Counted from the stretch's first letter, positions 40,390-54,517 are shown. The stretch: 64,000 bases of DNA from Pseudomonadota bacterium (GCA_039193195.1 JBCCWS010000021.1:3247-67246); one strand, 5' to 3'. Notes: generated by a model from the letters alone, not told the origin. Numbers and translations are program-made.

Positions 40390-40758
40390 ATGACTGAAGT
40401 ACAGCAGGAAATCCGTACCGTGGGGCGGCCACAATTGAAGGCCAGCACCCGTTTACGTCTGCCGATCGCATACGCGTGCCTCATCGCAGTTGGCACCTTC
40501 GACATCCTGTTCACCACGATCATCCTCTCCCTGGGAGGTGCCGAGGCCAACCCGATCGCCGCCGCCGTGATCGAGCAGTACGGCCTCGCAGGCTTGGTGG
40601 CTTTCAAATACCTGGTCATCGCCGTGGTGATTCTCGGCTGTGAATTCGTTGCCTCTGCCCGCATCGAGACGGCTCGTCGGCTAGCTCTAGTGGTTGTGGC
40701 GATCACCGCGGCGCCGGTCGTGTGGAGCACAGGCCTGCTGATCAAGCTCGTCGCCTGA
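40390..40758 (+). CDS. DUF5658-like small membrane protein
   Basis: 122 aa and 4 TM segments, with FDILFTTIILSLGGAEANPIAA typical of DUF5658. Confidence 0.6.
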   Translation: MTEVQQEIRTVGRPQLKASTRLRLPIAYACLIAVGTFDILFTTIILSLGGAEANPIAAAVIEQYGLAGLVAFKYLVIAVVILGCEFVASARIETARRLALVVVAITAAPVVWSTGLLIKLVA

Positions 40759-40881: not shown

Positions 40882-41394
40882 TCACAGCCAACGCGCTGCC
40901 CACAAGCGCCAGCGAAGACCCCACTCACCGGGCAGCCCAAGCAGACGAAAGCGAATCCGGCCGTCGCGATCGACAATGAAGGTCGTGGGCACAGCCACAA
41001 CGCCGTACTGACCGGCAATACGCCCGTCGTCGACGATGGTGGGCATGGTCAGAGACTCGGCGTCCAGGTAGGCGGCCACGTCGGCCTCCTCGCCCGACTG
41101 CATGGCGATGGTGAGCACGTGGCCCTCCGTCGCCAAGCGATCGATCATGTCGTGCTCGCGCATGCAGTTGGGGCACCACACGGCCCAGAAGCGAATCGCC
41201 ACAGGGCCCTCGTCCGTGTACTGCGCTAGGGAAACTGGGCCTGCTTCGAGGCGCTGGGCCGTAAACTGCGGAGCCTGCCCCAGCGCCTGCTGATCGAGCC
41301 AAAGGCGCACGCCGAAGAAGATCGATAGTAGGAGTCCCGCTTCCAACAGGAGCAGGAACCATAAGCGAGTGCGCCGCCGCTTGGGCTTGGACAT
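40882..41394 (-). CDS. TlpA-like membrane-anchored thiol:disulfide oxidoreductase
   Basis: N-terminal TM anchor and the thioredoxin motif FWAVWCPNC. It is the last gene of the filament operon. Confidence 0.8.
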   Translation of the reverse strand: MSKPKRRRTRLWFLLLLEAGLLLSIFFGVRLWLDQQALGQAPQFTAQRLEAGPVSLAQYTDEGPVAIRFWAVWCPNCMREHDMIDRLATEGHVLTIAMQSGEEADVAAYLDAESLTMPTIVDDGRIAGQYGVVAVPTTFIVDRDGRIRFRLLGLPGEWGLRWRLWAARWL

Positions 41395-41403
41395 CGTCTT
41401 ACC

Positions 41404-42819
41404 CTACTGCTCAGTGATGGGCGGCGTATTGTGGCCCGTCACGCCCTTCGATGGCGTGCGACCCACATCTATCAGCGCCTGCTGAACCGCTACCAGGAGC
41501 GCTTCATTGCCGACCGCCTCGGCGTAGCGCAGCTCGTTTCGCAGCAGCTGCACCAGCGCCGCCGTGTCGTTGCGATCCTGATAACCCCCCCTAGCTTGCT
41601 CCACTAGGGCCAAACCGGCAGCCTCCTGGCCGACGCTCAACAGCGCCAAGCCGGAGTCGGCATAAACGGCGGGGTGGGTCTGCACATCGGTGGCAGCGAC
41701 AGCTTCACGCAGGACCGCGATGCCGACGTTGACCTGTCCTCGGCTCATCTGCGCCAGCCCAAGCATCGCCAGTGCCTCCGGACGAAGATCCGTCTCTGCC
41801 AGGCCGATGAGCATGGCGATGGCCGGCTCGTCCTGCCCCACCGCTAGAAACGCTTCGGCCTGGCCGAGGCGTAGGCGCTCGCGGCTCGGCGTTGAGCCAG
41901 GTTCGTTCTCCGCAGCTCGCCAGGCAAGCAGCGCGGCCTGGGGTACTTCACGGTTGAGCTCGACGCGCCCGAGTCGGGCACGCAGGGCTCTGCGCGTCAT
42001 CGAGGGGTTGGCGTCACTCGGGCCAGTGATCTCCAGCAGCAGGCGTAGGGTCATGGGATCGTGCATCGTTGCTAGCGACAAACTCCGCACGGCCATGTCG
42101 CGCGCGCGCACGGCTGCATCGAGGTTACCGACAAGCTGATGGGCCAATGCCGCGTAGAGGTTGGCCTGCGCGGCGACTCCCGCATCCCAGGTGGCCACGC
42201 GGTCGGCCGCCCGCTCGAAGATCCGTGCCGCGTCAGCCGGGCGACCGGCAGCGAGCGTCGCCGTAGCTCGCAGGCGCAGGGCGTCCAGTTCAGCCCAGGG
42301 CGCAGGTGACTTGGCGGGTATCGCGATCGATCGCTCTGCTACCTCAGCAAAACCGCCACGGCGTAGGTCTGCACGAGCTGACGCGCGCTCTCGCTCCCAC
42401 GCCTCGTAGCGCTTCGGTCGCTCGGCGCGATCGGCCACGAAGGCAGCCCAGCCGCCCGCTTCGGGCGCTGCCAGGACGTCTAGCCAGGCCGCGAGCACGT
42501 GCTGGATTTGGAGGGATGTTTGCGTCGCCAGCACGGCCTCACGGGCGCGATCGGGAAACATCCGCACGAGCTCACCGACCGCATTAGCACGCCCCCGCAG
42601 CAGTTGTTGCTGCACGCGCGTAACGAACACCTGCAGGGATTGTGGCTTACCCACCGCATCGCCAAGGACGACGGATTCGCCGTCGATGCGAAGCACGGGC
42701 CCCGAGGAGGTCGACGCTTCGGCTATGGGCGTCTCAGCGGGGCCTTGCGCTGGTCCTGTCGCGCAACTGCCGAGTGCCAGCAGAAGCCCTAGGACGCCGA
42801 GGGCGGCCCATCTTCTCAC
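41404..42819 (-). CDS. TPR-like lipoprotein (possible secretin pilotin/assembly factor)
   Basis: GTG start overlapping the secretin stop, a lipobox LALGSC, and an Ala/Leu-rich helical repeat content. Confidence 0.6.
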   Translation of the reverse strand: MRRWAALGVLGLLLALGSCATGPAQGPAETPIAEASTSSGPVLRIDGESVVLGDAVGKPQSLQVFVTRVQQQLLRGRANAVGELVRMFPDRAREAVLATQTSLQIQHVLAAWLDVLAAPEAGGWAAFVADRAERPKRYEAWERERASARADLRRGGFAEVAERSIAIPAKSPAPWAELDALRLRATATLAAGRPADAARIFERAADRVATWDAGVAAQANLYAALAHQLVGNLDAAVRARDMAVRSLSLATMHDPMTLRLLLEITGPSDANPSMTRRALRARLGRVELNREVPQAALLAWRAAENEPGSTPSRERLRLGQAEAFLAVGQDEPAIAMLIGLAETDLRPEALAMLGLAQMSRGQVNVGIAVLREAVAATDVQTHPAVYADSGLALLSVGQEAAGLALVEQARGGYQDRNDTAALVQLLRNELRYAEAVGNEALLVAVQQALIDVGRTPSKGVTGHNTPPITEQ

Positions 42820-44756
42820 CCCTGATCTCCCGACACGTTGCTCTGATTGACCGAAGGTGCGGTATTGAAGCGGAACAGATCGAAGATCGACCTATCGAAG
42901 GGCGGCTGCTTGTCACGGAACACTCCCCAATCGTCCGACGCGCCGGATTTGGAAGCGTTACCTGGCCGATAAGGATGAATGCTCAGCGACTCGAGCAGGT
43001 TGCGGCTGATCTTATCCGTCTCGATAGGCGTGCTGAGCACGTAAGGTCGTACCAACACGATCAGTTCGCTGCGGCTGATGACCGACGAGGTCCGCCGGAA
43101 CAGGACACCCAGGAGGGGAATATCGCCCAGAATCGGGATCTGTGCACGCTGGTCGCTTTCGGTCTCCTCGATCAGGCCACCGAACGCAAGTAGTAGGCCG
43201 TCGCGCGCCACGATCGTGCCACTCGCCGATTGGCTCTGCACCGTATCGATGGTCTCCGAGGAGAACCCAAGGCCTTGGGGCACGAGGATGGAAGCACCGT
43301 CTGGATTGACCTGGCTGGTCTCCTGCAGTAGACGAAGGGTCACCGTTCGGTCGGCGTTGATATTCGAGGTGATCAGCAGGTCTGTCCCAACGTCGCGCAG
43401 CTCGGTGACCGGCGTGGCCGACAAGGTGGTGGTGGCACCTGTCCCCACGATCACCTGTGGCTCCGTAAAGCCGGTCACCAAGGGCACCTGCTCGCCGGAG
43501 AAGATACGGCTCACCTCGCCGTTGGCTGTCAAAAGGATAGGCGTGGCGAGAGAGGTCACACGCCCCTTGCTCTGGAGCACCTGCAGGCGGGCCTGAAAGT
43601 TGTCCGAGACGGTCTGGAAAACGCCTGCGCTCAGGTCGAGGCCCGAGTCACCCTGGTCGAAGCCGCCGAAGTCACTGCCATCGTCGGAAGCGAAGGCGAA
43701 GTCGAAGCTCGTATCCTGCCCGTCGGACAGGTTGATGCGCAGGACGCGAACCTCCAGCAGAACCAACGACGTCGGCACATCAAGGCCTTCGATAATCGCC
43801 CTGATATCTGCCAGCACCTGCTCATTACCCGAGCGTACGACGATGCGATTGAGCCGCTGGACGGCCGTCACGTAGGTGGGCGCAAAGCGGGTAGCGACGC
43901 GCTGGGCCGCAGCAGCTGCGACCTGATCCCCACGCCGCGCTTCGGCCAGCGCCCGAGCCTCCTGCGCCGTGAGATCCGGCAGTTCCTGAGGCTCGAATTC
44001 CTGGGGCCCGCCGGTGTTTTGGTTCCCACCGAGGAAATTGTTTAACCCGTTGTTGCCGAGGCCGAACTGGTTGCCGTTGAGCGTCTGCACCCCGGTGCGC
44101 CCGGCACCGGTATCGCTGAGGCCGCGGCTGCGACCATCGATGACATCGAAGCGCCGGAACCGATTCTGCAGCTCCTGAAACGAGCGGTCAAAGAACTCGT
44201 TCTCCTCCGTGACGACGACCTGGTCGCCAAAGGTATCGCCGATTACGCGGACCACGTCCCGCGCGTTCGGGTACAAGAGCGTAAACACTTCGGTACGAGT
44301 GGCGCGGAACGCCGCCAGGTCGCCCCGAACATCCTCTGCAGTGGCCAGGAAATGAATGTCGCGGTCCTCGTCGCGGCGCGTAACAAGCCCCTGGGCCACA
44401 GCGATGGCGCTTAGCACCCCCTCGAGATCAAGGTCTCGCAGGGTGACGGTTACCCGCTCGTCCGCCACGCTGCGGCTAACGACCACGTTGGCGTTGGTAG
44501 AACGCCCCAGCTCATCGGCAACGCGACTGAGCGGCACGTCGATAAAACGGGCCTCGATAATGCGCCTGCGATTCTGCGGATCCGTCCTGATGTTGGCTAT
44601 ACCGAGTGGCGTCGTCGCCCCTCTTCCGGGGTCCAAGACGAGATTGCGCAGAGCGTCGGGTGCCACGGTGGGGTCGGACTGGGCGCGTGCTGCCGGCAAG
44701 AGCGTCAGCATTGCCAGGAGCGCAATGCCCGCAATGATCTGCACGGTGCGGTTCAT
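42816..44756 (-). CDS. gspD: Secretin (GspD/PilQ superfamily)
   Basis: ATG at 44756 gives the signal peptide MNRTVQIIAGIALLAMLTLLPAARAQ. The C-terminal secretin domain is present (TPILLTANGE...VP......, IPILGDIPLLGVLFR, SELIVLVRP). ATGA overlap with gspF. Confidence 0.85.
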   Translation of the reverse strand: MNRTVQIIAGIALLAMLTLLPAARAQSDPTVAPDALRNLVLDPGRGATTPLGIANIRTDPQNRRRIIEARFIDVPLSRVADELGRSTNANVVVSRSVADERVTVTLRDLDLEGVLSAIAVAQGLVTRRDEDRDIHFLATAEDVRGDLAAFRATRTEVFTLLYPNARDVVRVIGDTFGDQVVVTEENEFFDRSFQELQNRFRRFDVIDGRSRGLSDTGAGRTGVQTLNGNQFGLGNNGLNNFLGGNQNTGGPQEFEPQELPDLTAQEARALAEARRGDQVAAAAAQRVATRFAPTYVTAVQRLNRIVVRSGNEQVLADIRAIIEGLDVPTSLVLLEVRVLRINLSDGQDTSFDFAFASDDGSDFGGFDQGDSGLDLSAGVFQTVSDNFQARLQVLQSKGRVTSLATPILLTANGEVSRIFSGEQVPLVTGFTEPQVIVGTGATTTLSATPVTELRDVGTDLLITSNINADRTVTLRLLQETSQVNPDGASILVPQGLGFSSETIDTVQSQSASGTIVARDGLLLAFGGLIEETESDQRAQIPILGDIPLLGVLFRRTSSVISRSELIVLVRPYVLSTPIETDKISRNLLESLSIHPYRPGNASKSGASDDWGVFRDKQPPFDRSIFDLFRFNTAPSVNQSNVSGDQG

Positions 44757-45964
44757 AGGGCCGCTCCGTAGAGCGCCATCATGAAGGCGATGTAGACGTA
44801 CCCGACGATGCCGCCGACGACGATGATGACGGCGACCTCGACGAGGCTGGACAACGTGCGAATGAGCGCATCGAGGCGTTGTTCGTGAAATTCGGCGCAG
44901 GAGGTCATGGTTTCGTCTAGGTTTCCTGACTTCTCCCCCACGACAACCATGCTGCTCAGCATCGGGGTGAAGGTCTTGGGGGCCGCGAGCGCCGGCCCGA
45001 GGGCGCCACCGCCGATAACGCGGTCTCGCGCCTCGGCAATGAGTACGGTAAGGCGACGGTTGCCGTGCAGCTCCTGGCAGGTGCGCAGCGCCTCGATGAT
45101 GGTAACGCCGCTCGCCAATAGGTAAGCGAAGGAGCGGCTGAAGTACGCCGTCGCGCTGGTGCGCAGAATGAAGCCTGTTAGTGGCACGCGGAGCGCGATC
45201 GAGTCGATCAGCAAGCGCCCCACCGGCACCGCGTAGGTGACCGCGAAGCAGATCATCGCTAGCAAGATCCCGCCGACGATCATCGGCCACGAGGTCATCA
45301 GAAAATTACTGAGGTCGACCAACCCCTGGGCCATGGGCGGCAGCGGTCGGCCGAGGGCAGCCAGATAGACGGTGATGCGGGGCACGGCGAAGGTGAGAAT
45401 GAACACCGTCACGCCGATCGCGGCCACTAACACAAGGGTCGGGTACATGAGCGCAGAGATCAGCTGGGCAAGCAGCAGTCGCCGTTTTTCGAGCGCATCG
45501 GCCGCCCTCGCCAGCACGACGTCGAGGGTCCCGGTCTGCTCGCCGACCTCGACCAGTTGGCGCACCATGCGCCCCATCCAGGGATGGCGTTCCAGGGCCT
45601 GCGTAACGGTTCTCCCCTCCTGAACGCGCTCGGCGATGTCGACCAAGGTGGCACGCATAAATCTCGGCGACTGCGCGGCCGTCGCCCGCAGCGCCTCGAG
45701 TAGCGTCAACCCACTTCGCAGCATGACGCTGAGCTGTCGCATAGCCACTTCGAAGGTGGCCATGCTCGGGCGCGCAAAGGGCAGGCGGCTGATACGCGCC
45801 TCCAGCTGCAGCGATTGCGCCGGCCGGGTGCGCTCCTCGAGACGCAGCAGCAGGTGACCGTCAGCGCGCAGGGCGGCGGACGCCGCAGTCGCATCGGCCG
45901 CTTCTAGAAAGCCAGACTCGGTCTGACCGGATGGCGTTCGAATGTCGTAGGCGAAACTAGTCAT
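44753..45964 (-). CDS. gspF: Type II secretion/type IV pilus platform protein (GspF/PilC family)
   Basis: 403 aa with a duplicated T2SSF domain and three TM segments. Confidence 0.9.
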   Translation of the reverse strand: MTSFAYDIRTPSGQTESGFLEAADATAASAALRADGHLLLRLEERTRPAQSLQLEARISRLPFARPSMATFEVAMRQLSVMLRSGLTLLEALRATAAQSPRFMRATLVDIAERVQEGRTVTQALERHPWMGRMVRQLVEVGEQTGTLDVVLARAADALEKRRLLLAQLISALMYPTLVLVAAIGVTVFILTFAVPRITVYLAALGRPLPPMAQGLVDLSNFLMTSWPMIVGGILLAMICFAVTYAVPVGRLLIDSIALRVPLTGFILRTSATAYFSRSFAYLLASGVTIIEALRTCQELHGNRRLTVLIAEARDRVIGGGALGPALAAPKTFTPMLSSMVVVGEKSGNLDETMTSCAEFHEQRLDALIRTLSSLVEVAVIIVVGGIVGYVYIAFMMALYGAAL

Positions 45965-45988
45965 TTAGGCTGGGCCGTTCTTATTGAT

Positions 45989-47851
45989 CTAAGGATGGTC
46001 GACGGCGGACGCATCGAGTTCAGCGTCGGCGGTCGATAGGTCTGATTCGCTCGCCGTCAGATCAGCGAAGCTCACCACGTTGCGCAGCACATCGGCGATG
46101 CTCGTGCGACCCTGCAACAGCTTCTCGGCCGCATCGTCGGCGAGCGTCTGCAGCCCGTGCTCCTCGATATAGCTCTTGAGCTGGTCCTCGGTGGCGCGGG
46201 CGGTGATCAATCGCGACAAGCCGCGGTCACAGGTGAGCATCTCGAACAGAGCCAGGCGCCCGATGTAGCCGCGCTGGCCGCAGTAAAGGCAACCCACTGG
46301 CTCCATAATCGACTGACCCGCCAGGTCAGGCCGTCCCAGCACAGCAGCATGGGCCGGATCACACGGTGCCGGCGTCGCGCATGAGGAGCACAGGCGACGG
46401 ACCAAGCGCTGGGCGACGACCATGCGCAAGGTGGCTCCGACCAGATACGGCGGAATGCCCATGTCGATCAGGCGGGTGATCGCACCGGTAGCATCGTTGG
46501 TGTGCAGCGTACTAAACACGAGGTGCCCGGTGAGCGCCGCCTTAACAGCGATATCGGCGGTCTCGCTATCGCGGATCTCACCGATCATGACGACGTCCGG
46601 ATCGTGGCGCAGGGTACTGCGCAGGGCCTTCGGGAAGGTGACCTTCTCCGCCGGATCGACCTCCACTTGGGTGACGCCCTTGATCTGGTACTCGACCGGG
46701 TCTTCGATGGTGATCACATTTAAATCGGTTTCGCTGATCAGCTGCTGGATGGCAGCGAACAGCGTCGTGCTCTTGCCGCTTCCCGTCGGCCCCGTTAGCA
46801 GGACCAGGCCATAGGGCTGGCGGATGGCCTGGCCGAATCGCTTGAGCTGCGTCGCGGACATGCCGAGCGTGCCAAGGCTTAGGTCGTCCGCGTCCTTGCC
46901 GAGCAGACGGAGCGTCACGCGCTCGCCGTGTTTGGTCGGCAGCGTGGCGACGCGAACATCGAGGCGAACGTCGTTGCTCATCTCGTGACGCAAGCGACCG
47001 TCCTGCGGCGCACGACGCTCGGAGATATCGAGGCCGGCCATGACTTTGATGCGACTGATAAGCGCGGCACCACTCTCCGGCGTGAGATCGCGCAGGGTTT
47101 CGATCTGCCCATCCACGCGCACGCGAATCCGAACCTGAGTCTGGAAACTGTCGATGTGGATGTCGCTGGCGCCGTACATCAGTGCCGAGGCAAACACGAG
47201 GTCGTAGGTGGCAACCGCGTCGAGCTCACCGTCATCGCCTCCTTCGGCCCCAATCGACAAGGCATCAGCACCGGCGTAAACCCGCTCGATGACCTTGCCC
47301 AAGGACTCTGCGTCGACCGTGTGCAGCTTGATGTCGCGCCGGTAGGTCCGATTCAGCACCGTCTCGACCTTCGGACTCAGGGGACCGGCCACCGCCACCA
47401 CGACCGCCTCCTCGCTGGTGGCAAAGGGCAGCACCTGCCATTGACGGGCGCGGGCGGCGGGCAGCAGTAGCGCCACGTGTGGGTCCACCCTGACGCGCGC
47501 GATGTCGAGTTGAGAAGTCTTCGGCTCGAGCAGCGCGCCCGACACCAAGCGCACGCCGATAACCGGCCGCTCCGGGGCGTCGCTCCAGGCCACCTCGGCC
47601 GGTTGCGGAGGGCTGCCATCTGCGCTGTCCATCAACAGCCGTTGACCCACTGCGGGTAGCTCAGCCGAGTCGGTCAATTCGATCTCCGCGCCGCCGGGGG
47701 AGACCTGCAGCAGCTGCGCCTCGCGTCGAATACCGTCGGCGAAGTGCAGCCAGATGGAGCGCCCGCGCGGGTGCGGCTGCGCGTGGCCGGTCGGATCGAG
47801 GGTCGCCTCGTGACCGCGCTGCTGCATCGGGTCCGAATCCACCGTGCTCAC
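45989..47851 (-). CDS. gspE: GspE/PilB-family assembly ATPase with extra N-terminal PilZ-like domain
   Basis: Walker A LLTGPTGSGKSTTL, Asp box, Walker B DPDVVMIGEIRD, His box, and tetracysteine CSSC...CLYC. A T2SSE_N-like segment and an additional domain of about 100 aa lie upstream. Confidence 0.9.
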   Translation of the reverse strand: MSTVDSDPMQQRGHEATLDPTGHAQPHPRGRSIWLHFADGIRREAQLLQVSPGGAEIELTDSAELPAVGQRLLMDSADGSPPQPAEVAWSDAPERPVIGVRLVSGALLEPKTSQLDIARVRVDPHVALLLPAARARQWQVLPFATSEEAVVVAVAGPLSPKVETVLNRTYRRDIKLHTVDAESLGKVIERVYAGADALSIGAEGGDDGELDAVATYDLVFASALMYGASDIHIDSFQTQVRIRVRVDGQIETLRDLTPESGAALISRIKVMAGLDISERRAPQDGRLRHEMSNDVRLDVRVATLPTKHGERVTLRLLGKDADDLSLGTLGMSATQLKRFGQAIRQPYGLVLLTGPTGSGKSTTLFAAIQQLISETDLNVITIEDPVEYQIKGVTQVEVDPAEKVTFPKALRSTLRHDPDVVMIGEIRDSETADIAVKAALTGHLVFSTLHTNDATGAITRLIDMGIPPYLVGATLRMVVAQRLVRRLCSSCATPAPCDPAHAAVLGRPDLAGQSIMEPVGCLYCGQRGYIGRLALFEMLTCDRGLSRLITARATEDQLKSYIEEHGLQTLADDAAEKLLQGRTSIADVLRNVVSFADLTASESDLSTADAELDASAVDHP

Positions 47852-49026
47852 CGAACCGCGGTCCTGCGAGCGATGCCAGCCCGGACGTTGTGGCGGCTAA
47901 TCTGCTCGGCGCGGGCGCGCAGCACCTCCGGCCGCTTTGCTGCCGCTGTGGCCGATCGCTCGCTGAGTCTTCCCGCCACCATCAGGCGCGCGAGGTCCTG
48001 CTCGAAGGTCTGCATGCCGTAGCCTGCACCAGCTTCCATGCAGCTGTAGATCTGGCTGCTCTTGCTGTTCAACAGCAGGTTCGACACGGCCGTCGTCACC
48101 ATCAGCACTTCAGACGACACCACGCGCTGGCGGGCCAGCCCCTGTGGATCGTCCGCGTGGACCGCCGTGCCATCCGCGACCAGCAGCCGCTGCGACACCA
48201 CGCAACGCAGCACCAGTGCCAGCTGCTGGCGAATCGCGGTCTGCTCTTCCGCAGGAAACACGCCCACGACGCGTTCGATGGTGCTCACGCAATCGCCAGC
48301 GTGCACCGAGGCCAAAACCAGGTGTCCGGTCTCTGCCGCCGTGATAGCCGTGCGGATGGTGTCCGTGTCGCGGATCTCGCCGACCAGCACGACGTCCGGA
48401 TCCTCACGCAGGCTATTCACCAGGGCGTCGTTGAAGGACTCCGTGTCCAAACCGACCTGACGCTGGTTCACCAGTGCCCGCGCCGGGCGATGGACGTACT
48501 CGATCGGGTCCTCGATCGTGATCACGTGGCACGCGTGGGTGTTGTTGATGCGGTCGATCAACGTCGCGAGGGTAGTCGACTTACCGCTGCCCGTCGGTCC
48601 ACTGACGAGCACCAGTCCGTAGGGCAAATTACAAAGGTCGTAAAGTGCTTCCGGAAGCCCCAGTTCGGCAAGCCCTCGGAACCGGTCCTCGAGGCGTCTT
48701 AGGGCCACCGCCAGGCCGCCGCTGCGCCAAAACAGGTTGAAGCGGTAGCGGGTGCCGTCGGGGCCCGTGAACGCACCGTCTACGCTGCCCGTTCGCCGCT
48801 TACTAAAACCACTGCTGAGATCGTCGACGATCGCCACCATCGTCTCGCGATCGAGCGGCGCTTCACCCGCCAAGGCCTCGAGGGGCCCTTGCGTGCGCAG
48901 GTAGGGCGGCAGGCCCTCGCCTAGGTGGATATCGCTCGCATCGAGCTCCACGCAGCGACGCAGTAGGTGCTCGAGACGTTTGGCCGAGGGCGTGCCCGGC
49001 GGCGAGTCCGCTCCCTGGCTGCTCAC
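47848..49026 (-). CDS. pilT: PilT/PilU-family retraction-type ATPase
   Basis: Walker A VSGPTGSGKSTTL, ITIEDPIEY, DPDVVLVGEIRD, GHLVLASVHA. It has no tetracysteine motif and PilT-like length. GTGA overlaps at both ends. Confidence 0.85.
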   Translation of the reverse strand: MSSQGADSPPGTPSAKRLEHLLRRCVELDASDIHLGEGLPPYLRTQGPLEALAGEAPLDRETMVAIVDDLSSGFSKRRTGSVDGAFTGPDGTRYRFNLFWRSGGLAVALRRLEDRFRGLAELGLPEALYDLCNLPYGLVLVSGPTGSGKSTTLATLIDRINNTHACHVITIEDPIEYVHRPARALVNQRQVGLDTESFNDALVNSLREDPDVVLVGEIRDTDTIRTAITAAETGHLVLASVHAGDCVSTIERVVGVFPAEEQTAIRQQLALVLRCVVSQRLLVADGTAVHADDPQGLARQRVVSSEVLMVTTAVSNLLLNSKSSQIYSCMEAGAGYGMQTFEQDLARLMVAGRLSERSATAAAKRPEVLRARAEQISRHNVRAGIARRTAVR

Positions 49027-49808
49027 GGTTCGCCTCCGGTGTCCGTTACCGTCAGCGCCCAGCGGCGCAGGGACGTCGATGTCAGCGCGGGCTCCATCGT
49101 CAGCGCGGACAGCGCCAGTCCCGGTGGGAAGGTATCGGCGGCCGCCAACTGCCTGCCCATGGCCGACCAGGTCGCCGCCACGTCGACCTGCCAGCGCAGG
49201 CGCCGCGTGGTACCTGTACTCGTACTCGCGAGCCGATTCGCACTCGAGGAGGTCCTCGGTAGCGCACTCGCGTCAACCGACTTTCGCCGCTGCCGGCGGC
49301 TGAGGCTACGGTTAGCCGTGGCACCTGTCGCCGGCCGCGTCGCCGCGCTCGTGGCCGGATTGGGCCTTGGGCTCGTCACGCTCGTCGCCGGGCGGCCTTG
49401 CGAGGCTGTGCTCACGCGTGTGCCCCCCTGCGGCAGCATGCCGAGCACCTGCACCCCGTTTCGACTGAGTTGGCGGGTCAACCGATCCAGGCCCTGCGCC
49501 ATCGCGGAGGCGCGGCTGCCGCTTGGCACGCGCAAGGCATCGACCCGCTCCTTGAGCTGCGCCTCTCGGTTCTTCAGCTCAGCCAAGGTCTGCTCACTCT
49601 CCCGTAGCTCATTGGTGAGATCGCGCTGCTCCCGCGCCCGTCGCGCAAGCGCCTCATCGCTGGTCAGCAGGTTCAAGCGGCGCTCCATATCGGGAATCCG
49701 CGACGTCTCGCCCTTCGGCAGGCCCAGCGACGCGATGACCACCAGGGCTGCCGGCATCAGGCAGACAAGCCAGAGCTCGCGGCGCGAGAGTCGGCGCTTT
49801 AGCATCAT
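49023..49808 (-). CDS. GspM/PilO-like bitopic assembly protein (hypothetical)
   Basis: Short basic N-terminus, one TM (LWLVCLMPAALVVIASL), a coiled-coil segment, a long S/T/R/P/A-rich linker and a small C-terminal domain. The assignment rests on architecture and position only. Confidence 0.45.
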   Translation of the reverse strand: MMLKRRLSRRELWLVCLMPAALVVIASLGLPKGETSRIPDMERRLNLLTSDEALARRAREQRDLTNELRESEQTLAELKNREAQLKERVDALRVPSGSRASAMAQGLDRLTRQLSRNGVQVLGMLPQGGTRVSTASQGRPATSVTSPRPNPATSAATRPATGATANRSLSRRQRRKSVDASALPRTSSSANRLASTSTGTTRRLRWQVDVAATWSAMGRQLAAADTFPPGLALSALTMEPALTSTSLRRWALTVTDTGGEP

Positions 49809-51289
49809 CGACGCGCCTCTCGGGAGGGTGCCCGCAGATCGACCACCGGCTCCATGAGTATGGAGAACTCCCACACCACGCCACCGGAGCCGGCCTTGGG
49901 CTCGATCTGCGCGGGGTTTACGCGCCAATGGGTACTAAGCATTCTGCTTAGGTTGCTGGCCAGGCGCGATGCCGCTTCAGGGGTCGAGGCCACGCCGGAG
50001 ATAGATTGCCAGGGCATGCGATGCTCCAGGGATCGGATCACGATGTCCTCGTCTACCAGCTGGCCCACGGCCTCCATCAAGGCCGCCAGCGCGACACGAC
50101 GATCGACGCCGGCGGTTGTGCGCCAATCGCGGCTGAATCGATCAAGTTCTTGCTCTAAGGCCTGAACGGCACGCTCTCGGCTGCGCACTTCGCTACTGAG
50201 CGTGCGCAAGCGCGCCCGGCGGTCGGTAACGACCTGCTGCTGGCCCTGGGCGTGGTCCAGCTGCGCCTGCAGTACCGTGTATTGCTCCTGCCCCTGGCTG
50301 CGCTGGAGTAGCACCGTCGAAAGCGCTAGTAAGAAGACGACCACGCCTACCGCCACCGCTGTCCAGCGCTCCGTCTGCGCGCTGGGCGGGCGCAGGACCG
50401 GGCCGCCCTCGGTGCGCGAGGCACCCTCTGCTGCGAGACATCGGGCCCAGGCAGCAGCGAACTGCGTAGCCGCATCGTCATCGCCCAGCCTCCAGGTCGG
50501 CAGGCCTGTGTCCTCATCATCAACCCCGTCTTCGGCCAGCCAGCGAGCCGCGCTATTGTCTGGCGAGGTAGTCTCACGCCACTGGTGGCCGCCGCGAACT
50601 TTCACGGCCCCTTCGATCAGGGTTTGCTCCTGGCCGACCGGCTCGGCGCCGCGCAGATACGGCGCGAGCGCCCGTCGCCAGTCGCTCTGCGGCACGGCCC
50701 CCAGCGGGATCAGCGTGACGGCCCCCGCCACGCACTCCACCAGCACTACCGAGTCCGACCAAAACTCCAGGCGGCGCCAAGACCCATCTGGCTCCATGAT
50801 TGCAGGCGAGGCTGGTGCCAAGGCCTCCGCCAGCCCCGCCGGATGGCTGATGCCGGCCAAGCGTGATCTTGCACCTCGCACCGCCTTGGTCACAGCGATC
50901 ATGTCGCTGCGCTTCACCTGGGCGACGAGGAAACTGTCCCCAAGGTCAGCCATACGCCGCCGCTGCACTTCCGTCACCGCGTCGGCCGGCTTGATGTCGC
51001 TGAGCGCCTCGGCCTCGTAGGCTGCCGGCTCAATCAGGTCCTTATCCGACAAGCCGGCGACGGCACCGCTGGACAGTTCGATGGCGCCGAACCAGACCCC
51101 ACTGTCCAGCACCCAAACCCGGCGACCGACAGGCCCGGCCCCATCACTGAGCGCATGGGTGAGCGCTGCGGGCAGATCCGGCCAGGATCGGCGCCAGCGT
51201 TGGACCGGTCGCGCTTCGCTACCCTGATCAGCCCGCAGAAGCAGGCCCTCGGTGCGAATCACCACGGTGATGTCGGGACGAGAGGTCAT
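49805..51289 (-). CDS. GspL- or PilM/PilN-fusion-like bitopic assembly protein (hypothetical)
   Basis: Cytoplasmic domain of about 300 aa, one TM (WTAVAVGVVVFLLALSTVLL), a coiled coil and a periplasmic domain. The assignment rests on architecture and synteny only. Confidence 0.45.
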   Translation of the reverse strand: MTSRPDITVVIRTEGLLLRADQGSEARPVQRWRRSWPDLPAALTHALSDGAGPVGRRVWVLDSGVWFGAIELSSGAVAGLSDKDLIEPAAYEAEALSDIKPADAVTEVQRRRMADLGDSFLVAQVKRSDMIAVTKAVRGARSRLAGISHPAGLAEALAPASPAIMEPDGSWRRLEFWSDSVVLVECVAGAVTLIPLGAVPQSDWRRALAPYLRGAEPVGQEQTLIEGAVKVRGGHQWRETTSPDNSAARWLAEDGVDDEDTGLPTWRLGDDDAATQFAAAWARCLAAEGASRTEGGPVLRPPSAQTERWTAVAVGVVVFLLALSTVLLQRSQGQEQYTVLQAQLDHAQGQQQVVTDRRARLRTLSSEVRSRERAVQALEQELDRFSRDWRTTAGVDRRVALAALMEAVGQLVDEDIVIRSLEHRMPWQSISGVASTPEAASRLASNLSRMLSTHWRVNPAQIEPKAGSGGVVWEFSILMEPVVDLRAPSREARR

Positions 51290-51291
51290 CG

Positions 51292-52329
51292 CTAGCTTTG
51301 CTCTTCTAGCACAAGTTGCGGCAGCGGCGGCAGCCCGCCGGGTACGTTGACAAAGTACACGGGACGACTGACGCGGTCAGTGCCAGGAAGCAGCGCCGGA
51401 TTCAAATCCTCGTCGGGCAGGGGACTGCACTTCGTCTGATAGGCGCGAATCACCCGAGGCCCAACGCTCACGGCGCCACCGGGGATCATGGGCGCCAAGG
51501 GCACGGCGGTCACGCCCACAGCCACGCCATCCACGTTGAGGTCATGCACGGCCTGGGCGAGCGTCAGCACATCACCGCTGGCCGCATCCGGGCCGTAAAC
51601 GCGGATCACTATGCAATCCCCAAACCCGAGGTCGTCGCCCGGATCACTGCCGTCATCGACCACCACCCCCTCGATGACGACATCGCCCTCGAAGCGCGGC
51701 GGCACGACGCTGACCAGGCCGGCAAACTCCGGGGCGGCCTGGGCGACCGCAGTCGCTTCGAACACGGTGAGCAGGTCGCGACCGAAACCGACGCCGCCGG
51801 CGAGGCGATCGGCACCGCGGCTGCGCACGATGCGGATTTCGCCCGGCGCCGCCACCAAGACGCCGTCCTGATCGAAGGCCTCGAAATCCCTGCCCCAGCC
51901 GTCGGTCAGCGTGTCCGCGCCGACAGGCAGGCGCAGGTAGGGTCCACGCCATCCACTGCCAACCGCGAGCCCCGTGTCCCCCGGCGGTGCCCTATCGATG
52001 CGAAAGGCCGATTGGGTCCCGAGCCTTAGCAACTCACCCAGGTCAGCGGGTGGGCGCCCCATGTCCGCCACGAAGCCTGTGATCAGGCGCTGACCGTCGG
52101 GGCCACGTAGGTCCGAGTCGCCGACCACGGCAGCGTCCAGCTGCTCCAGCGTGCGGACCGTTCTTTGGTAGCGCGCGTCGTCGGTCAGACTCGCCGACTG
52201 CGCGATGATGATCGTCCCCAGCGCTGCGAGGATCGTCAACACCACGATCAGTTCCAGCAGCGTTAGCCCCGCCTGGCGTGATCGCGTGCGGATCGGCGCG
52301 TCCGCGCAGAGCAGCTTAATTGACCTCAC
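51292..52329 (-). CDS. Large GspG-like pseudopilin (345 aa)
   Basis: Class III signal ...SRQAG|LTLLELIVVLTILAALG with Glu+5, plus GspG-like motifs GWRGPYL, DGWGRDF and SRGADRLAGG. GTG start. Confidence 0.7.
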   Translation of the reverse strand: MRSIKLLCADAPIRTRSRQAGLTLLELIVVLTILAALGTIIIAQSASLTDDARYQRTVRTLEQLDAAVVGDSDLRGPDGQRLITGFVADMGRPPADLGELLRLGTQSAFRIDRAPPGDTGLAVGSGWRGPYLRLPVGADTLTDGWGRDFEAFDQDGVLVAAPGEIRIVRSRGADRLAGGVGFGRDLLTVFEATAVAQAAPEFAGLVSVVPPRFEGDVVIEGVVVDDGSDPGDDLGFGDCIVIRVYGPDAASGDVLTLAQAVHDLNVDGVAVGVTAVPLAPMIPGGAVSVGPRVIRAYQTKCSPLPDEDLNPALLPGTDRVSRPVYFVNVPGGLPPLPQLVLEEQS

Positions 52330-52334
52330 GAGTT

Positions 52335-53141
52335 CTATTCCTGCGGATCCTGATCCTGCTGAAAGAGGTAGAGCACCAGATCATCACCCTGCTCTTCTTC
52401 GTCGGTGACCAGCGTGTCCAGCGTGCGGTTCGGCCCCGCGGAGAGCAGCCGCACACCGTTCAACTCGGCAGGATCGTCAATGACGCCGTCGCCGTCGGGA
52501 TCGGGGCCGTTGTCATCGCTGTCGAACCACTGGATGACGATTGGCCGGCTCCAGGCGTCGAGGGGAGTGAGGTCATCACCTGGCGCGCCGCCGGGGCCGT
52601 CGCCCTCGCCGTAGCGCGTGGTGAAGGCGCCGTCCACCGTGTAGCCAACCGCCGTGGTCACGTCCAGCCAGGGGCCGCGTCAGCCGATCTGGTTGACGGG
52701 ATCGTAGACTTGCTGCGCCGGTGGGGCGTAGTCGAAGAGCTGCAGGGGCTCGACGAAAAGGTAGCGAAGCTGAGGGTGGTCCTGACGTCCTGCGCTAATC
52801 TCAGCCGGACTCGGCCAAGGCAGCCCTGTGCCGTAGCCGATGTTGCGGTCGAGCGTGTCGCGCGCGTAGCGCATGCTCTGCGCGTAACCGTCCGGCCCGA
52901 CGATCGCCTCGGCGACCCGCGCGAGCGTGGTCTCCGTGATGACCTGCTGCGCCAATTTACCGTCTTGGCCGCCAGCGCCGTCGAGGTCTATCTCCAGCGT
53001 GTTTTGAGTCAAATTCACCAGTACGAGGCCACCGAGCGCCACGAGTACCACGAGCACCACAAGCAACTCGATCAGCGTGACGCCGCGGCAGGGTGCGGCG
53101 GCGTTGGCCCTCTCCGTTAGACGCGAGAGGTCGCTCGGCAC
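52335..53141 (-). pseudogene. GspG-like pseudopilin interrupted by an in-frame TGA (52680-52682)
   Basis: ORFs 52680-53342 and 52335-52661 share one frame. The N-terminal part has ...CRG|VTLIELLVVLVVL and the C-terminal part has DAWSRPIVIQ and LLSAGPNRTLDT. Start proposed at GTG 53141 (uncertain). Confidence 0.6.
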
Positions 53142-53227
53142 CCGCCCGCCGTGCAAGCGATCGAACTCACGGCCTCGACCGACTGTGCTCGAGTCCTCGC
53201 CCAAAAATGGGCTTCGCTCAACGAAGA

Positions 53228-53256
53228 GCCCCTGGGGCGGAAACCGCCCCAGGGGC
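53228..53256 (-). terminator. Perfect 13-bp GC-rich hairpin (GCCCCTGGGGCGG aaa CCGCCCCAGGGGC) downstream of the first pilin gene
   Basis: Read directly and cross-checked against ORF frames. It begins about 34 nt after the pilin stop. On the transcript it is followed by CUCUUCGUU. It sits in the only sizeable gap (148 nt) of the operon. Confidence 0.55.
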
Positions 53257-53289
53257 CACTTGTCGCCAGCAGGCGAGGCCATTCGGGGA

Positions 53290-54129
53290 TTAGATACCCG
53301 AGCCCTGTACCTCATCCCACTGGATGCCGATGTGGTTGTCACCGGTCTCGAACAGGCTGCCGTCCAAGTTGTAGCTCACGCGCTTAAACTCTGCCGAGCC
53401 GTCGCCGGTACCCACACCGCCATCGTCGACCAGGAAGACCGCGCCGAAGCGAGAGTAGGCCTGATTGGGCAGAGCGCCTTCGGTATCGCCGAAGTGGACA
53501 GGCGGCTCAGGCGTGAGCGTGCCGAGCAGAGTCCAGGGCTTGTCGATGCCGAGCCAGACGTACTGCTGCGATCCCGTCGTGGCCGGCAGGAAGACCTCTG
53601 CGGCCTGCACGTCAGTCAGGATGAGGACGGGCGTGGCGTCATCCAGGGTCAGGCAGGTGGCGCCAAGGGTATCGATACCGGAATTGAAGGTGACGTCGTA
53701 GCCGTCGACCGCGGCCGGGTCGCCATGGTTGCAGACGTTGACGATTCCGAGCTCGTTGATGGCTGCCACCTGATCTGTGGTCAGCAGGCCCGTCTGTAGA
53801 GAGCCACCGCCGCCGCCGCCGCCATCAGTATTGGTGGCGGAGTTGTTGACCGGCTCGCCTGCACCTGCACCCGCACCAAAGATGTCGGTGGTCCAGTTGT
53901 CGCCGAAGTTGCCAAGCGTGGCGTTGGCCGCGATCAGCATTTTCGAGACTTCTGAGAAATTGGTCGCGCAGGTGGCGACGTGAGAACGGGTCAACGCGTT
54001 GTTGATCACCGGAACCAGGATACCGCCCGTTGCGACCAGGATGGTCAGCACCACGACCAGTTCGATCAGGGTTAGGCCACGCTGGCTCTTGGGCCCTTGG
54101 CCCCGCCCGTAATTACGCAAAGCGTGCAT
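53290..54129 (-). CDS. Pilin-like protein (279 aa), first gene of the filament operon
   Basis: Class III signal ...KSQRG|LTLIELVVVLTILVATGG with Glu+5. The globular part has 3 Cys and a Gly7 run, and no family is recognised. GGAG RBS. Confidence 0.7.
   Translation of the reverse strand: MHALRNYGRGQGPKSQRGLTLIELVVVLTILVATGGILVPVINNALTRSHVATCATNFSEVSKMLIAANATLGNFGDNWTTDIFGAGAGAGEPVNNSATNTDGGGGGGGSLQTGLLTTDQVAAINELGIVNVCNHGDPAAVDGYDVTFNSGIDTLGATCLTLDDATPVLILTDVQAAEVFLPATTGSQQYVWLGIDKPWTLLGTLTPEPPVHFGDTEGALPNQAYSRFGAVFLVDDGGVGTGDGSAEFKRVSYNLDGSLFETGDNHIGIQWDEVQGSGI
53803..53823 (-). repeat. Trinucleotide repeat (GGC)5-GGT-GGC encoding Gly7 in the pilin-like gene
   Basis: Codons for G103-G109. 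The + strand reads gcc acc gcc gcc gcc gcc gcc. Confidence 0.85.
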
Positions 54130-54218
54130 TAAAATCTCCGTAATTTCAATTATTTACCGCTTCCCTGCCAAGCACCGACCGGAAGGTAGGCTGAGTTCAC
54201 TTGGGCAGGACCGTGGAA

Positions 54219-54228
54219 TGTTATAACA
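54219..54228. promoter_or_regulatory. Perfect palindrome TGTTATAACA within GGAATGTTATAACA (Zur-box-like half site)
   Basis: Lies in the divergent region between the filament operon (start 54129) and rpmJ (54518). GGAATGTTATAA resembles the left half of the enterobacterial Zur box GAAATGTTATAA as I recall it. Confidence 0.3.
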
Positions 54229-54388
54229 AAAGGAACTGGGTCGCACTTTAAATGAAAATGGCTCGCATTTCGGGGTTTCCCCAGCGGGGTTTCGGTTTGG
54301 CGCCAGAAGGCTCAGTCCCCAATTTCCCCGGACCCACCAGGGGTGGCGAAGGGAATGATCGGCTGCACATCGGCCTAACAAGTCATTG

Positions 54389-54419
54389 GTGAATGCGAAT
54401 TGTTTGCAGTACCATTCAC
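54389..54419. promoter_or_regulatory. Inverted repeat GTGAATG-N17-CATTCAC upstream of rpmJ
   Basis: 7-bp perfect arms about 100 nt upstream of the L36 start. Function unknown. Confidence 0.25.
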
Positions 54420-54517
54420 ATCTAGGCCACGGCGGTGTACAACCCAGTGTGCCCGGCAGAGAGCGACGGTCGCACAGCGGCATTGCGCAATGCCACCCCA
54501 CAGGTCGGAGTCAAAAA

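What the first reader, a model, noticed from the sequence alone, without database searches (positions are those of the whole stretch)
40882..54129. Compact 13-kb type IV filament operon combining T2SS-type pseudopilins with a PilT retraction ATPase
Eleven minus-strand genes run from 54129 to 40882. They have 4-nt start/stop overlaps (42816-42819, 44753-44756, 47848-47851, 49023-49026, 49805-49808) or gaps of 25 nt or less, apart from one 148-nt gap that holds a strong hairpin. The gene order is: pilin-like (279 aa), TGA-interrupted GspG-like pseudopilin, GspG-like pseudopilin (345 aa), GspL- or PilMN-like (494 aa), GspM/PilO-like, PilT-like ATPase, GspE/PilB-like ATPase (tetracysteine), GspF/PilC platform, secretin, TPR lipoprotein, TlpA-like thioredoxin. 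Canonical T2SS lack PilT and carry GspC/H/I/J/K. Canonical T4aP carry PilP, an AMIN-domain PilQ, a minor pilin set and often PilD. None of those is visible in this operon. All three pilin-like proteins have G|(L/V)TL(I/L)EL with Glu+5. Their predicted leaders are long (about 18-20 aa) with Leu/Val at +1, which is T4b-like, yet two of them carry GspG-like motifs (GWRGPYL, DGWGR/DAWSRP, S.G.D/N). I cannot place this combination in a named class. A dedicated thioredoxin and TPR lipoprotein at the 3' end are also atypical.
Basis: partly seen in the sequence, partly recalled or inferred. Interest (0 to 1): 0.75.

Follow-up and report, generated by a model that had tools for sequence, protein, structure and literature searches.

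The report
Uncharacterised retractile type IV pilus cassette
This is a real, self-contained gene cluster for a pilus machine with its own retraction motor; it fits no named class, but it is a conserved cassette found widely in Planctomycetota and Verrucomicrobiota, not a one-off hybrid.

Summary
The eleven minus-strand genes, the five 4-nt overlaps, the 148-nt gap with its hairpin and the G|LTL(I/L)EL prepilin motifs are all present as described. Domain searches confirm a PilT-family ATPase, a GspE/PilB-type ATPase, a GspF/PilC platform, a secretin without AMIN and a thioredoxin-fold protein. A structure model shows the 494-aa protein is GspL-type. No core component reaches the curated cut-off of any T2SS, T4aP or MSH equivalog model.

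It is not unique. The same order (three pilins, L, M, PilT, E, F, usually secretin and a TPR-like lipoprotein) occurs in 20 other loci, including cultured Roseiconus lacunae and Rubellicoccus peritrichatus. The GspL-like family has 686 clusters at 50% identity.

- The in-frame TGA is TGG (Trp) in an independent assembly of the same strain and in all relatives.
- "GspG-like" rests on short motifs only; profile searches find nothing.
- The thioredoxin is lineage-specific, whereas the TPR-like lipoprotein is conserved.
- A conserved DUF5658 membrane-protein gene next to the operon was missed.
- The first pilin, probably the major one, has a confidently predicted head domain with no solved structural relative.

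Most likely this is a retractile pilus. It is a new variant of a known kind.

The parts
54130..54517 (-). Upstream non-coding region that presumably holds the operon promoter; it is bounded by a divergent L36 gene on the + strand.
   Evidence: No ORF here has a family hit. The sigma-70 and sigma-54 pattern scans found nothing convincing. The promoter is inferred, not shown.
53290..54129 (-). Pilin 1 (279 aa), the candidate major pilin. It has an 18-aa leader, then G|LTLIEL, Glu+5 and Pro+22.
   Evidence: N_methyl motif. 88 homologues. The AF2 model has pLDDT 89.9 and pTM 0.85, with a long alpha-1 helix (residues 21-72) and a beta-rich head. The best Foldseek match in the PDB has E=0.65, so no solved relative exists. 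It is the first gene and is followed by a conserved hairpin.
53227..53257 (-). G+C-rich hairpin (14-bp stem, UUU loop) followed by CUUCGUU; a candidate attenuator or partial terminator after the major pilin gene.
   Evidence: Every relative examined has a strong hairpin in the same gap, often followed by a U run.
52335..53141 (-). Pilin 2 (about 268 codons), with an in-frame TGA at 52680-52682 in this assembly.
   Evidence: The TGA aligns with an invariant TGG in motif G-W-R-x-x-W-L in 9 of 9 relatives. The independent Logan assembly L022 has TGG and an intact 273-aa gene. Conserved motifs are DGWG.P[IV][VI]IQ and [VA]RL[VIL]SAG.
51292..52329 (-). Pilin 3 (345 aa): N-terminal pilin helix, the motifs GWRGPYLRLP...DGWG, and a C-terminal extra domain.
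   Evidence: N_methyl motif. The NCBIfam GspG model matches only residues 21-68, at 29 bits against a cut-off of 88.9. Alignment A2. hhalign shows only helix homology to pilins 1 and 2.
49805..51289 (-). GspL-type assembly protein (494 aa): actin-like cytoplasmic domain, one TM helix, coiled coil and a periplasmic ferredoxin-like domain.
   Evidence: No Pfam, NCBIfam or PDB sequence hit. The AF2 model matches cyto-EpsL 1yf5 at E 8.7e-9, GspL 4pht and PulL 5tkw, then PilM. The C-terminal domain matches periplasmic EpsL 2w7v (TM 0.74), PulL, XcpY and PilO.
49023..49808 (-). GspM/PilO-like candidate (261 aa): basic N-terminus, TM helix, coiled coil, low-complexity insert and a small conserved C-terminal domain.
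   Evidence: The assignment rests on topology and position only (alignment A4). There is no Pfam, NCBIfam or PDB hit.
47848..49026 (-). PilT-family retraction ATPase (392 aa).
   Evidence: TIGR01420 scores 375 bits against a cut-off of 319. The best PDB matches are PilT of A. aeolicus and P. aeruginosa (272 and 265 bits), ahead of PilU (203). Walker A, Asp box, Walker B and His box are intact. The AIRNLIRE motif is divergent, reading AVSNLLLN.
45989..47851 (-). Extension ATPase of GspE/PilB type (620 aa): a degenerate PilZ-like N-domain, an MshEN/T2SSE_N domain, the ATPase core and a tetracysteine motif.
   Evidence: T2SSE scores 403 bits and MshEN 42 bits. GspE scores 478 and PilB 462, both below their cut-offs. 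PDB GspE scores 357 and PilF 353 bits. Relatives have a canonical PilZ domain, but its motifs are degenerate here.
44753..45964 (-). Inner-membrane platform, GspF/PilC type (403 aa).
   Evidence: T2SSF scores 174 bits. GspF scores 262 and PilC 248 bits, both below their cut-offs.
42816..44756 (-). Outer-membrane secretin (646 aa) with a signal peptide and no AMIN domain.
   Evidence: Pfam Secretin scores 113 bits. GspD scores 144, PilQ 108 and MshL 96 bits, all below their cut-offs. In the PDB, GspD scores 72-57 bits, PilQ 54-41 and RcpA 36.
41404..42819 (-). Conserved lipoprotein (471 aa) with TPR-like helical repeats; a candidate secretin pilotin.
   Evidence: The lipobox Cys19 is near-invariant (>=90% of sequences), and profile hits to TPR proteins are weak, E 0.02-0.3 at profile positions 333-429. 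The gene follows the secretin in 13 of the 14 relatives that show the gene after it; Methylocaldum L015 is the exception.
40882..41394 (-). Membrane-anchored thiol-disulfide oxidoreductase (170 aa, WCPNC), ResA/DsbE/TlpA-like; a lineage-specific addition.
   Evidence: AhpC-TSA scores 65 bits and Redoxin 50 bits. Among the loci it is found only in L004.
40390..40758 (+). DUF5658 small membrane protein (122 aa, about three TM helices by inspection of alignment A9), convergent with the operon; a conserved neighbour of the cassette.
   Evidence: PF18902 at E 1e-9. Homologues are adjacent to the cassette in 8 further loci. The invariant residues are D38, E52-x-N-P, K73-Y74 and C84.

Best explanation
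The locus encodes a complete, self-contained type IV filament machine that most likely builds a retractile surface pilus.

Proposed sequence of events:
1. Pilin 1 is made in excess, because a hairpin after its gene attenuates read-through into the rest of the operon.
2. Pilin 1 and two larger minor pilins are cleaved after the conserved Gly by a prepilin peptidase encoded elsewhere.
3. A GspF/PilC platform and a GspL-type/GspM-like pair form the inner-membrane assembly complex. The cytoplasmic actin-like domain of the L protein docks the GspE/PilB-type hexameric ATPase, which drives extension.
4. The adjacent PilT-family ATPase replaces it to drive retraction.
5. The fibre leaves through a secretin whose assembly is helped by the TPR-like lipoprotein encoded next to it.
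6. In most relatives the extension ATPase carries an N-terminal PilZ domain with intact c-di-GMP-binding motifs. In this genome those motifs are degenerate.

Shown here: gene content, the fold of the L protein, PilT family membership, intact ATPase motifs, conservation of the cassette and of the hairpin.
Inferred: the filament, retraction, the docking, the pilotin role, and the roles of the M-like protein and DUF5658.
For: - PilT family model above its curated cut-off (375 against 319 bits) with intact catalytic boxes.
- PilT lies between the M-like gene and E in 20 of 21 related loci.
- The first pilin gene is separated from the rest by a conserved strong hairpin. From my knowledge, this is the usual arrangement for an abundant major pilin.
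- The pilin 1 model is a classic long alpha-1 helix plus a globular head.
- The L protein matches cyto-EpsL/PilM and periplasmic EpsL/PilO folds. The EpsE-EpsL complex 4pht is the second-best hit for L and the top hit for E.
- The secretin and the lipoprotein genes overlap by 4 nt.
- The PilZ-MshEN-ATPase architecture occurs in relatives.
- The flanks differ between loci, so the cassette is the conserved unit.
Against: - There is no experimental evidence for any member of this cassette, and no paper describing it was found.
- Several parts lean towards T2SS: the GspL-type fused protein, a secretin nearer to GspD than to PilQ and lacking AMIN, and GspE scoring slightly above PilB in all seven ATPases tested.
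- The PilT AIRNLIRE motif is divergent.
- No prepilin peptidase, PilP/GspC or tip adhesin is present in the window.
- A related cassette in Methylocaldum lacks PilT.
- The M-like assignment rests on topology only.
Confidence: 0.6

Rival explanations
1. It is a divergent type II secretion system. A short periplasmic pseudopilus made of the three pilin-like proteins pushes folded proteins through the secretin, and PilT merely speeds pseudopilus disassembly.
For: The L protein has a GspL-type fused fold. The secretin scores best with GspD and has no AMIN domain. GspE scores slightly above PilB in all seven ATPases tested. Pilins 2 and 3 carry short GspG-like motifs.
Against: PilT is conserved in the cassette (20 of 21 related loci), whereas canonical T2SS lack it. 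All Gsp equivalog cut-offs are missed by wide margins. There is no GspC/H/I/J/K. The T2SSG model and head-domain profiles fail. The first pilin has a large novel head and its own attenuator, which suggests a long fibre. No obvious secreted-enzyme genes travel with the cassette.
Confidence: 0.15
2. It is a retractile pilus whose main role is capture and import of macromolecules (polysaccharide or DNA), not motility or adhesion. It could correspond to the dextran-binding fibres seen on Planctomycetes.
For: The cassette is present in cultured and uncultured Planctomycetota and Verrucomicrobiota. Fibres that bind dextran have been reported, and a 2025 review states that the components are unknown (PMC5394234; PMC12673574). 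A retraction motor is built in.
Against: There is no direct link. No ComEA/ComEC or glycan-binding genes are in the cassette. The reported fibres are 12 nm wide, thicker than typical type IV pili (my knowledge). The window's MAG is labelled Pseudomonadota.
Confidence: 0.15
3. In this particular genome the locus is defective, because pilin 2 carries a premature stop.
For: A TGA at 52680-52682 replaces an invariant Trp.
Against: An independent assembly of the same strain has TGG. It differs from the window at only 2 of 5201 bases, both G->A changes away from conserved residues. There are no frameshifts, and the 114 codons after the stop remain 74% identical to the closest relative.
Confidence: 0.05

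Closest known systems
MSHA pilus system (Vibrio cholerae msh locus)
   Same: The extension ATPase carries an MshEN domain, the secretin lacks AMIN, and a TPR protein belongs to the system. From my knowledge, MSH also has a fused PilM/N-like protein with a PilO-like partner (MshI, MshJ). Retraction depends on PilT (PMC9815625, listed). No prepilin peptidase lies in the locus (PMC6668835).
   Different: The MshL model scores 96 bits against a cut-off of 250. No NCBIfam family matches the L- or M-like proteins. Here PilT is encoded inside the operon. From my knowledge, gene order differs, MSH carries about seven pilin-like genes against three here, and there are no MshK/M/F equivalents. Relatives have an extra PilZ domain.
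Type IVa pilus (Pil system of Pseudomonas, Myxococcus, Thermus)
   Same: A PilT-family retraction ATPase, a PilB-like ATPase with tetracysteine, a PilC-like platform and a secretin. Pilin 1 has Glu+5 and Pro+22. From my knowledge, T4aP also has a TPR lipoprotein pilotin (PilF/Tgl).
   Different: A single operon. A fused GspL-type protein replaces separate PilM and PilN. No PilP, no AMIN domain, no FimU/PilVWXE/PilY1 set. Residue +1 is Leu, not Phe, and leaders are 18-21 aa. The PilB and PilQ models are far below their cut-offs.
Type II secretion system (Gsp/Eps/Pul)
   Same: A GspL-type fused protein. The secretin and ATPase score marginally best with the GspD and GspE models. The locus is a single operon. 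Two pilins carry short GspG-like motifs.
   Different: It contains PilT, lacks GspC/H/I/J/K, fails every equivalog cut-off, and the first pilin has an unrelated large head domain.
Bundle-forming pilus (type IVb, EPEC bfp operon)
   Same: From my knowledge, BFP also is one operon with the major pilin gene first, includes both an extension ATPase and a PilT-like retraction ATPase (BfpD, BfpF), and has long leaders with a +1 residue that is not Phe.
   Different: The ATPase is much closer to GspE/PilB (about 350 bits) than to BfpD (142 bits). The secretin is not a lipoprotein. No prepilin peptidase is in the operon. The accessory proteins differ.

Membership tests
Type II secretion system (canonical Gsp) | GspD, GspE, GspF and GspG reach the NCBIfam equivalog cut-offs | tested here: not met
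   GspD 143.7 against 351; GspE 478 against 630; GspF 262 against 424; GspG 29 and 18 against 88.9. Six related E ATPases also fall below the cut-off.
Type II secretion system (canonical Gsp) | Minor pseudopilins GspH/I/J/K and GspC are present | tested here: not met
   No Pfam or NCBIfam hit in the operon or elsewhere in the window. Divergent analogues cannot be excluded.
Type II secretion system (canonical Gsp) | GspL-type fused cytoplasmic/TM/periplasmic protein | tested here: met
   The Foldseek top hits are cyto-EpsL, GspL and PulL for the cytoplasmic domain, and periplasmic EpsL, PulL and XcpY for the C-terminal domain. No sequence-level match was found.
Type II secretion system (canonical Gsp) | No PilT retraction ATPase in the system | tested here: not met
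   A PilT-family gene at 47848-49026 scores above the curated cut-off.
Type II secretion system (canonical Gsp) | Major pseudopilin with a GspG (T2SSG) head domain | tested here: not met
   PF08334 matches 0 of 11 pilin-2 and 1 of 13 pilin-3 orthologues, at E 2e-3. The head-only profile of pilin 2 finds no PDB hit at E<=10. Only short motifs are shared.
Type IVa pilus | PilT/PilU family ATPase | tested here: met
   TIGR01420 scores 375 bits against a cut-off of 319. The best PDB hits are PilT.
Type IVa pilus | PilB and PilQ reach their model cut-offs (PilB equivalog, PilQ subfamily); PilQ carries AMIN domains | tested here: not met
   PilB 462 against 676; PilQ 108 against 284; no AMIN hit.
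Type IVa pilus | Separate PilM, PilN, PilO and PilP, plus the minor pilin set with PilY1 | tested here: not met
   There is one fused L-type protein and one M-like protein. No PilP or PilY1 family hit was found, and only three pilin genes are present.
Type IVb pilus | Extension ATPase groups with the BfpD/TcpT type | tested here: not met
   BfpD scores 142 bits against about 350 for GspE, PilB and PilF. This is a similarity ranking, not a tree.
Type IVb pilus | Long leader peptide and a +1 residue that is not Phe | tested here: inconclusive
   Residue +1 is Leu (Val in pilin 2), and the leaders are 18-21 aa if the predicted starts are right. The start codons are not verified.
MSHA pilus | MshL secretin equivalog | tested here: not met
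   TIGR02519 scores 95.8 bits against a cut-off of 250.
MSHA pilus | MshEN domain on the extension ATPase | tested here: met
   PF05157 scores 42 bits against a cut-off of 23. The c-di-GMP-binding motifs of MshEN were not assessed.
Tad/Flp pilus | TadA-type ATPase and RcpA-type secretin | tested here: not met
   The TadA-like model scores 53 bits against 373. RcpA scores 36 bits in the PDB search.
Type IV filament superfamily (generic) | ATPase, inner-membrane platform and a pilin with a class III signal peptide; a secretin in diderms | tested here: met
   The definition of the 'generic' model is in PMC6668835.

The most novel reading that the evidence does not exclude
This cassette (three pilins, GspL-like, GspM-like, PilT, PilZ/MshEN-ATPase, platform, secretin, TPR lipoprotein and DUF5658) is a distinct, phylogenetically coherent class of retractile type IV filament, on a par with MSH or T4b. 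It is characteristic of Planctomycetota and Verrucomicrobiota, and its major pilin has a new head fold. It may build the so far genetically unassigned fibres that capture polysaccharides on planctomycetal cells. DUF5658 may be a new accessory or processing factor.
Probability: 0.2. Interest if true: 0.75.

Novelty: new variant of a known kind. Interest (0 to 1): 0.5.

Why it matters
Type IV filaments are classified mostly from proteobacterial and firmicute models. This cassette is a conserved, compact, ten-to-eleven-gene machine with a built-in retraction motor.

- Five of its proteins have no family model: the L-like and M-like proteins, the heads of pilins 1 and 2, and the lipoprotein.
- Its probable major pilin has a confidently predicted fold with no solved relative.
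- It occurs in cultured Planctomycetota and Verrucomicrobiota, so it can be tested genetically.
- It gives a concrete candidate for the unassigned surface fibres of these phyla.
- It offers a natural PilZ-ATPase fusion for studying c-di-GMP control of pilus extension.
- It adds a data point on how GspL-type and PilM/N-type assembly modules, and PilT, were retained or lost as T2SS, MSH and T4aP diverged.

Tried and rejected
- Recoding or selenocysteine at the TGA. Rejected: the codon aligns with an invariant TGG (Trp), not Cys, and an independent assembly has TGG.
- Sequence-level identification by profile against PDB sequences gave nothing useful for the L-like protein, the M-like protein or the lipoprotein (only weak TPR hits). 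For the pilins it gave only N-terminal helix matches, and nothing for the pilin 2 head alone.
- hhalign between the three pilin families found homology in the N-terminal helix only.
- The sigma-70 scan gave no excess over shuffles, and a sigma-54 pattern search upstream of pilin 1 found nothing.
- A possible link between the TonB receptor plus thioredoxin near the window cassette and a similar pair in L019. Rejected: tblastn shows no homology.
- A search for a prepilin peptidase or further filament genes in the rest of the window found none.
- Literature searches for this architecture, for Planctomycetes/Verrucomicrobia pilus genetics and for DUF5658 found nothing specific.
Bit-score rankings were used instead.
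- The taxonomic origin of the contig could not be settled (NCBI label Pseudomonadota, while most relatives are labelled Planctomycetota).


Full report
**1.
ORF listing and translation give eleven consecutive minus-strand genes from 54129 to 40882. The start/stop overlaps read GTGA or ATGA at all five stated positions, and the other gaps are 2, 5, 9 and 24 nt. The one long gap (53142-53289) contains a 14-bp G+C-rich stem with a UUU loop at 53257..53227, followed by CUUCGUU. The region folds at -86 kcal/mol, z = -5.6 against shuffles. The flanking genes are unrelated. On one side lie a divergent L36 gene and a Sortilin/BNR protein. On the other lie gamma-glutamyltranspeptidase and a TonB-dependent receptor. 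The rest of the window is metabolic and regulatory, with no prepilin peptidase or other filament gene.

**2. What the proteins are.**
Pfam and NCBIfam give the following.
- PilT/PilU family: 375 bits, cut-off 319.
- T2SSE ATPase with an MshEN domain: GspE 478 bits, PilB 462 bits, cut-offs 630 and 676.
- T2SSF platform: GspF 262 bits, PilC 248 bits.
- Secretin without AMIN: GspD 144, PilQ 108, MshL 96 bits, all far below their cut-offs.
- An AhpC-TSA/Redoxin protein.
- N_methyl motifs on pilins 1 and 3. Pilin 2 could not be scanned because of its in-frame stop; 10 of the 11 sequences in the pilin-2 alignment (ten orthologues plus the window copy) carry the motif.

Against PDB sequences the extension ATPase is equidistant from GspE (357 bits) and PilF/PilB (353 and 343) and far from BfpD (142). 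The second ATPase is clearly PilT (272 bits; PilU 203). Its Walker A, Asp, Walker B and His boxes are intact, but the AIRNLIRE motif reads AVSNLLLN.

The 494-aa protein has no sequence-level relative in Pfam, NCBIfam or the PDB. An AlphaFold model was built from 20 homologues. Its overall pLDDT is 68, and the N-terminal domain reaches 85-90. The model matches cyto-EpsL (E 8.7e-9), GspL and PulL, then PilM. Its C-terminal domain matches periplasmic EpsL (TM 0.74), PulL, XcpY and PilO. It is therefore a GspL-type fused protein.

The 261-aa protein has the topology expected of GspM/PilO: a TM helix, a coiled coil and a small C-terminal domain. Nothing confirms this beyond topology. The 471-aa protein has a near-invariant lipobox cysteine and weak TPR-like matches.

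**3. The pilins.**
All three carry R-x-G|LTL(I/L)EL(V/I)VVL (Val at +1 in the window copy of pilin 2), and this is conserved in relatives. Profile comparisons show that they share only the N-terminal helix.

These do resemble GspG by eye. However, the Pfam T2SSG model matches 0 of 11 and 1 of 13 orthologues. PDB profile searches hit only the helix. A head-only profile of pilin 2 finds nothing at E<=10. 'T2SS-type pseudopilins' is thus a motif-level resemblance, not a demonstrated membership.

Pilin 1 is the first gene and is followed by the hairpin. Its model is of high confidence (pLDDT 89.9, pTM 0.85): a 52-residue alpha-1 helix and a beta-rich head. The head has no significant match in the PDB; the best E is 0.65.

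**4. The TGA.**
The stop aligns with an invariant TGG (Trp) of the motif G-W-R in nine relatives. An independent Logan assembly of the same strain (SRR22824305) was compared with the window.
- The two are 99.96% identical over 5201 nt.
- The Logan assembly has TGG at this codon and an intact 273-aa gene.
- The only other difference is also a G->A change in the window. It turns a conserved Gly of pilin 1 into Asp.

Both are therefore strain variants or consensus errors of the MAG, not features of the system.

**5. It is a conserved cassette.**
The L-like protein retrieved 23 close homologues, and a genome scan found 11 species representatives. tblastn mapping shows the same order in all of them: pilin 1, gap with hairpin, pilin 2, pilin 3, L, M, PilT, E, F, secretin, lipoprotein.

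Following the ATPase and pilin 1 outwards extends the cassette to more loci:
- a TARA ocean scaffold and another MAG;
- a JGI metagenome;
- Verrucomicrobiota, including cultured Rubellicoccus peritrichatus;
- cultured Roseiconus lacunae of the Pirellulaceae, where the secretin gene is divergent.

PilT is present in 20 of 21 related loci. A more distant cassette in Methylocaldum lacks it. A profile of the L-like family finds 686 clusters at 50% identity with E<=1e-3 and 135 with E<=1e-30. The ten members sampled have no significant GspL or PilM Pfam hit; the only related match is one sub-threshold PilN hit (E 0.005, 17.3 bits against a cut-off of 22.8). All seven extension ATPases tested score slightly higher with GspE than with PilB and fall far below both cut-offs.

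Most planctomycetal orthologues carry an N-terminal PilZ domain with canonical RRxxxR and D-x-S-x-x-G motifs. In the window and its closest relative these motifs are degenerate.

The thioredoxin occurs only in the window and in L004. A DUF5658 membrane-protein gene is adjacent in the window (opposite strand) and in eight other loci.

**6. Interpretation.**
Four things point to a long, retractile pilus and not to a T2SS pseudopilus:
- a conserved PilT;
- a first pilin gene set apart by an attenuator;
- a large-headed first pilin;
- the absence of GspC/H/I/J/K.

The assembly module is GspL/M-like, and the secretin and ATPase lean marginally towards T2SS. The system thus sits between the named classes. 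In parts list it comes closest to MSH: an MshEN ATPase, a secretin without AMIN, a TPR protein and PilT dependence. It fails the MshL model, however, and from my knowledge of the msh locus it also differs in gene order and pilin set.

Denise et al. 2019 found 884 'generic' filament systems that fit no class (PMC6668835). An unclassifiable system in under-studied phyla is therefore expected, not shocking. No paper describing this cassette was found. A 2025 review states that the components behind the fibre-mediated macromolecule uptake of Planctomycetes are unknown (PMC12673574; PMC5394234). That link is speculative.

**7. Verdict.**
The locus is a new variant of a known kind: a conserved but uncharacterised type IV filament cassette of Planctomycetota and Verrucomicrobiota, most likely a retractile pilus. 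Interest is moderate (0.5).

Limits of this analysis:
- no labelled phylogeny was built;
- no structure models were made for pilins 2 and 3 or the M-like protein;
- the rest of the genome could not be searched;
- the phylum of the source MAG is uncertain.

Noticed in passing
window 40390-40758 (+): A DUF5658 small membrane protein gene is convergent with the operon. Homologues are adjacent to the cassette in eight other loci (L001, L003, L007, L008, L009, L011, L012, L014). The invariant residues are D38, E52-x-N-P, K73-Y74 and C84. No literature, PDB relative or NCBIfam model exists. It may be a conserved accessory factor.
   Followed up: partly
window 52680 and 53885: These are the only two differences in 5201 nt from an independent Logan assembly of the same strain (L022). 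Both are G->A on the coding strand and both hit conserved residues (Trp to stop in pilin 2, Gly to Asp in pilin 1). This suggests consensus errors or a minor variant in the MAG.
   Followed up: yes
window 54518-54658 (+): A 46-aa ribosomal protein L36 gene (Pfam E 2e-19) of the C-terminally extended type that lacks the zinc cysteines; from my knowledge it resembles E. coli YkgO. It is divergent from the pilin operon, and a FUR-family regulator lies at 31205-31663.
   Followed up: partly
window 6349-6426 (+): An Rfam SAH riboswitch match exactly at the gathering score (37 bits, E 0.003). It overlaps the start of a MOSC-domain ORF instead of preceding a SAH-recycling gene. If real, it would favour a proteobacterial origin of the contig.
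   Followed up: no
window 45989-47851 (-), N-terminal 110 residues: The PilZ-like N-domain of the extension ATPase has lost the RRxxxR and D-x-S-x-x-G motifs that are intact in most planctomycetal orthologues. The same loss is seen in the closest relative, L004.
   Followed up: partly
window 53290-54129 (-), Cys133 and Cys159 of pilin 1: An extra cysteine pair is present only in the window and L005, within the subclade in which the window and L004 carry the operon-encoded thioredoxin-fold oxidoreductase. All orthologues share only Cys54. There may be a link between a lineage-specific disulfide and the added redox gene.
   Followed up: no
L016 4036-4731, L017 3462-4139, L020 2386-2979: A DtxR-family metal-dependent regulator gene sits next to the first pilin gene in three of the more distant cassettes, which hints at metal-responsive control there. 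The window has none.
   Followed up: no
L015 (Methylocaldum sp. MU1018, CM132195.1 361777-383576): A related cassette with a PilZ-MshEN ATPase, a platform, L-like and M-like proteins and four pilin-like ORFs, but without PilT. Its 778-aa secretin carries DUF3438 and is followed by a Pom-family protein. The same ATPase type also occurs in Methylothermus.
   Followed up: partly
window 49023-49808 (-), residues about 130-200: A long Ser/Thr/Pro/Ala/Arg-rich low-complexity insert splits the periplasmic part of the M-like protein in the window and L004. It is much shorter or absent in other orthologues.
   Followed up: no
whole window and loci L004, L005: NCBI labels the source MAG and its two closest relatives Pseudomonadota. 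The other cassette carriers are labelled Planctomycetota, Phycisphaeraceae or Verrucomicrobiota. G+C content is even across the window (0.61-0.68). Horizontal transfer, mis-binning or mislabelling could not be told apart.
   Followed up: partly
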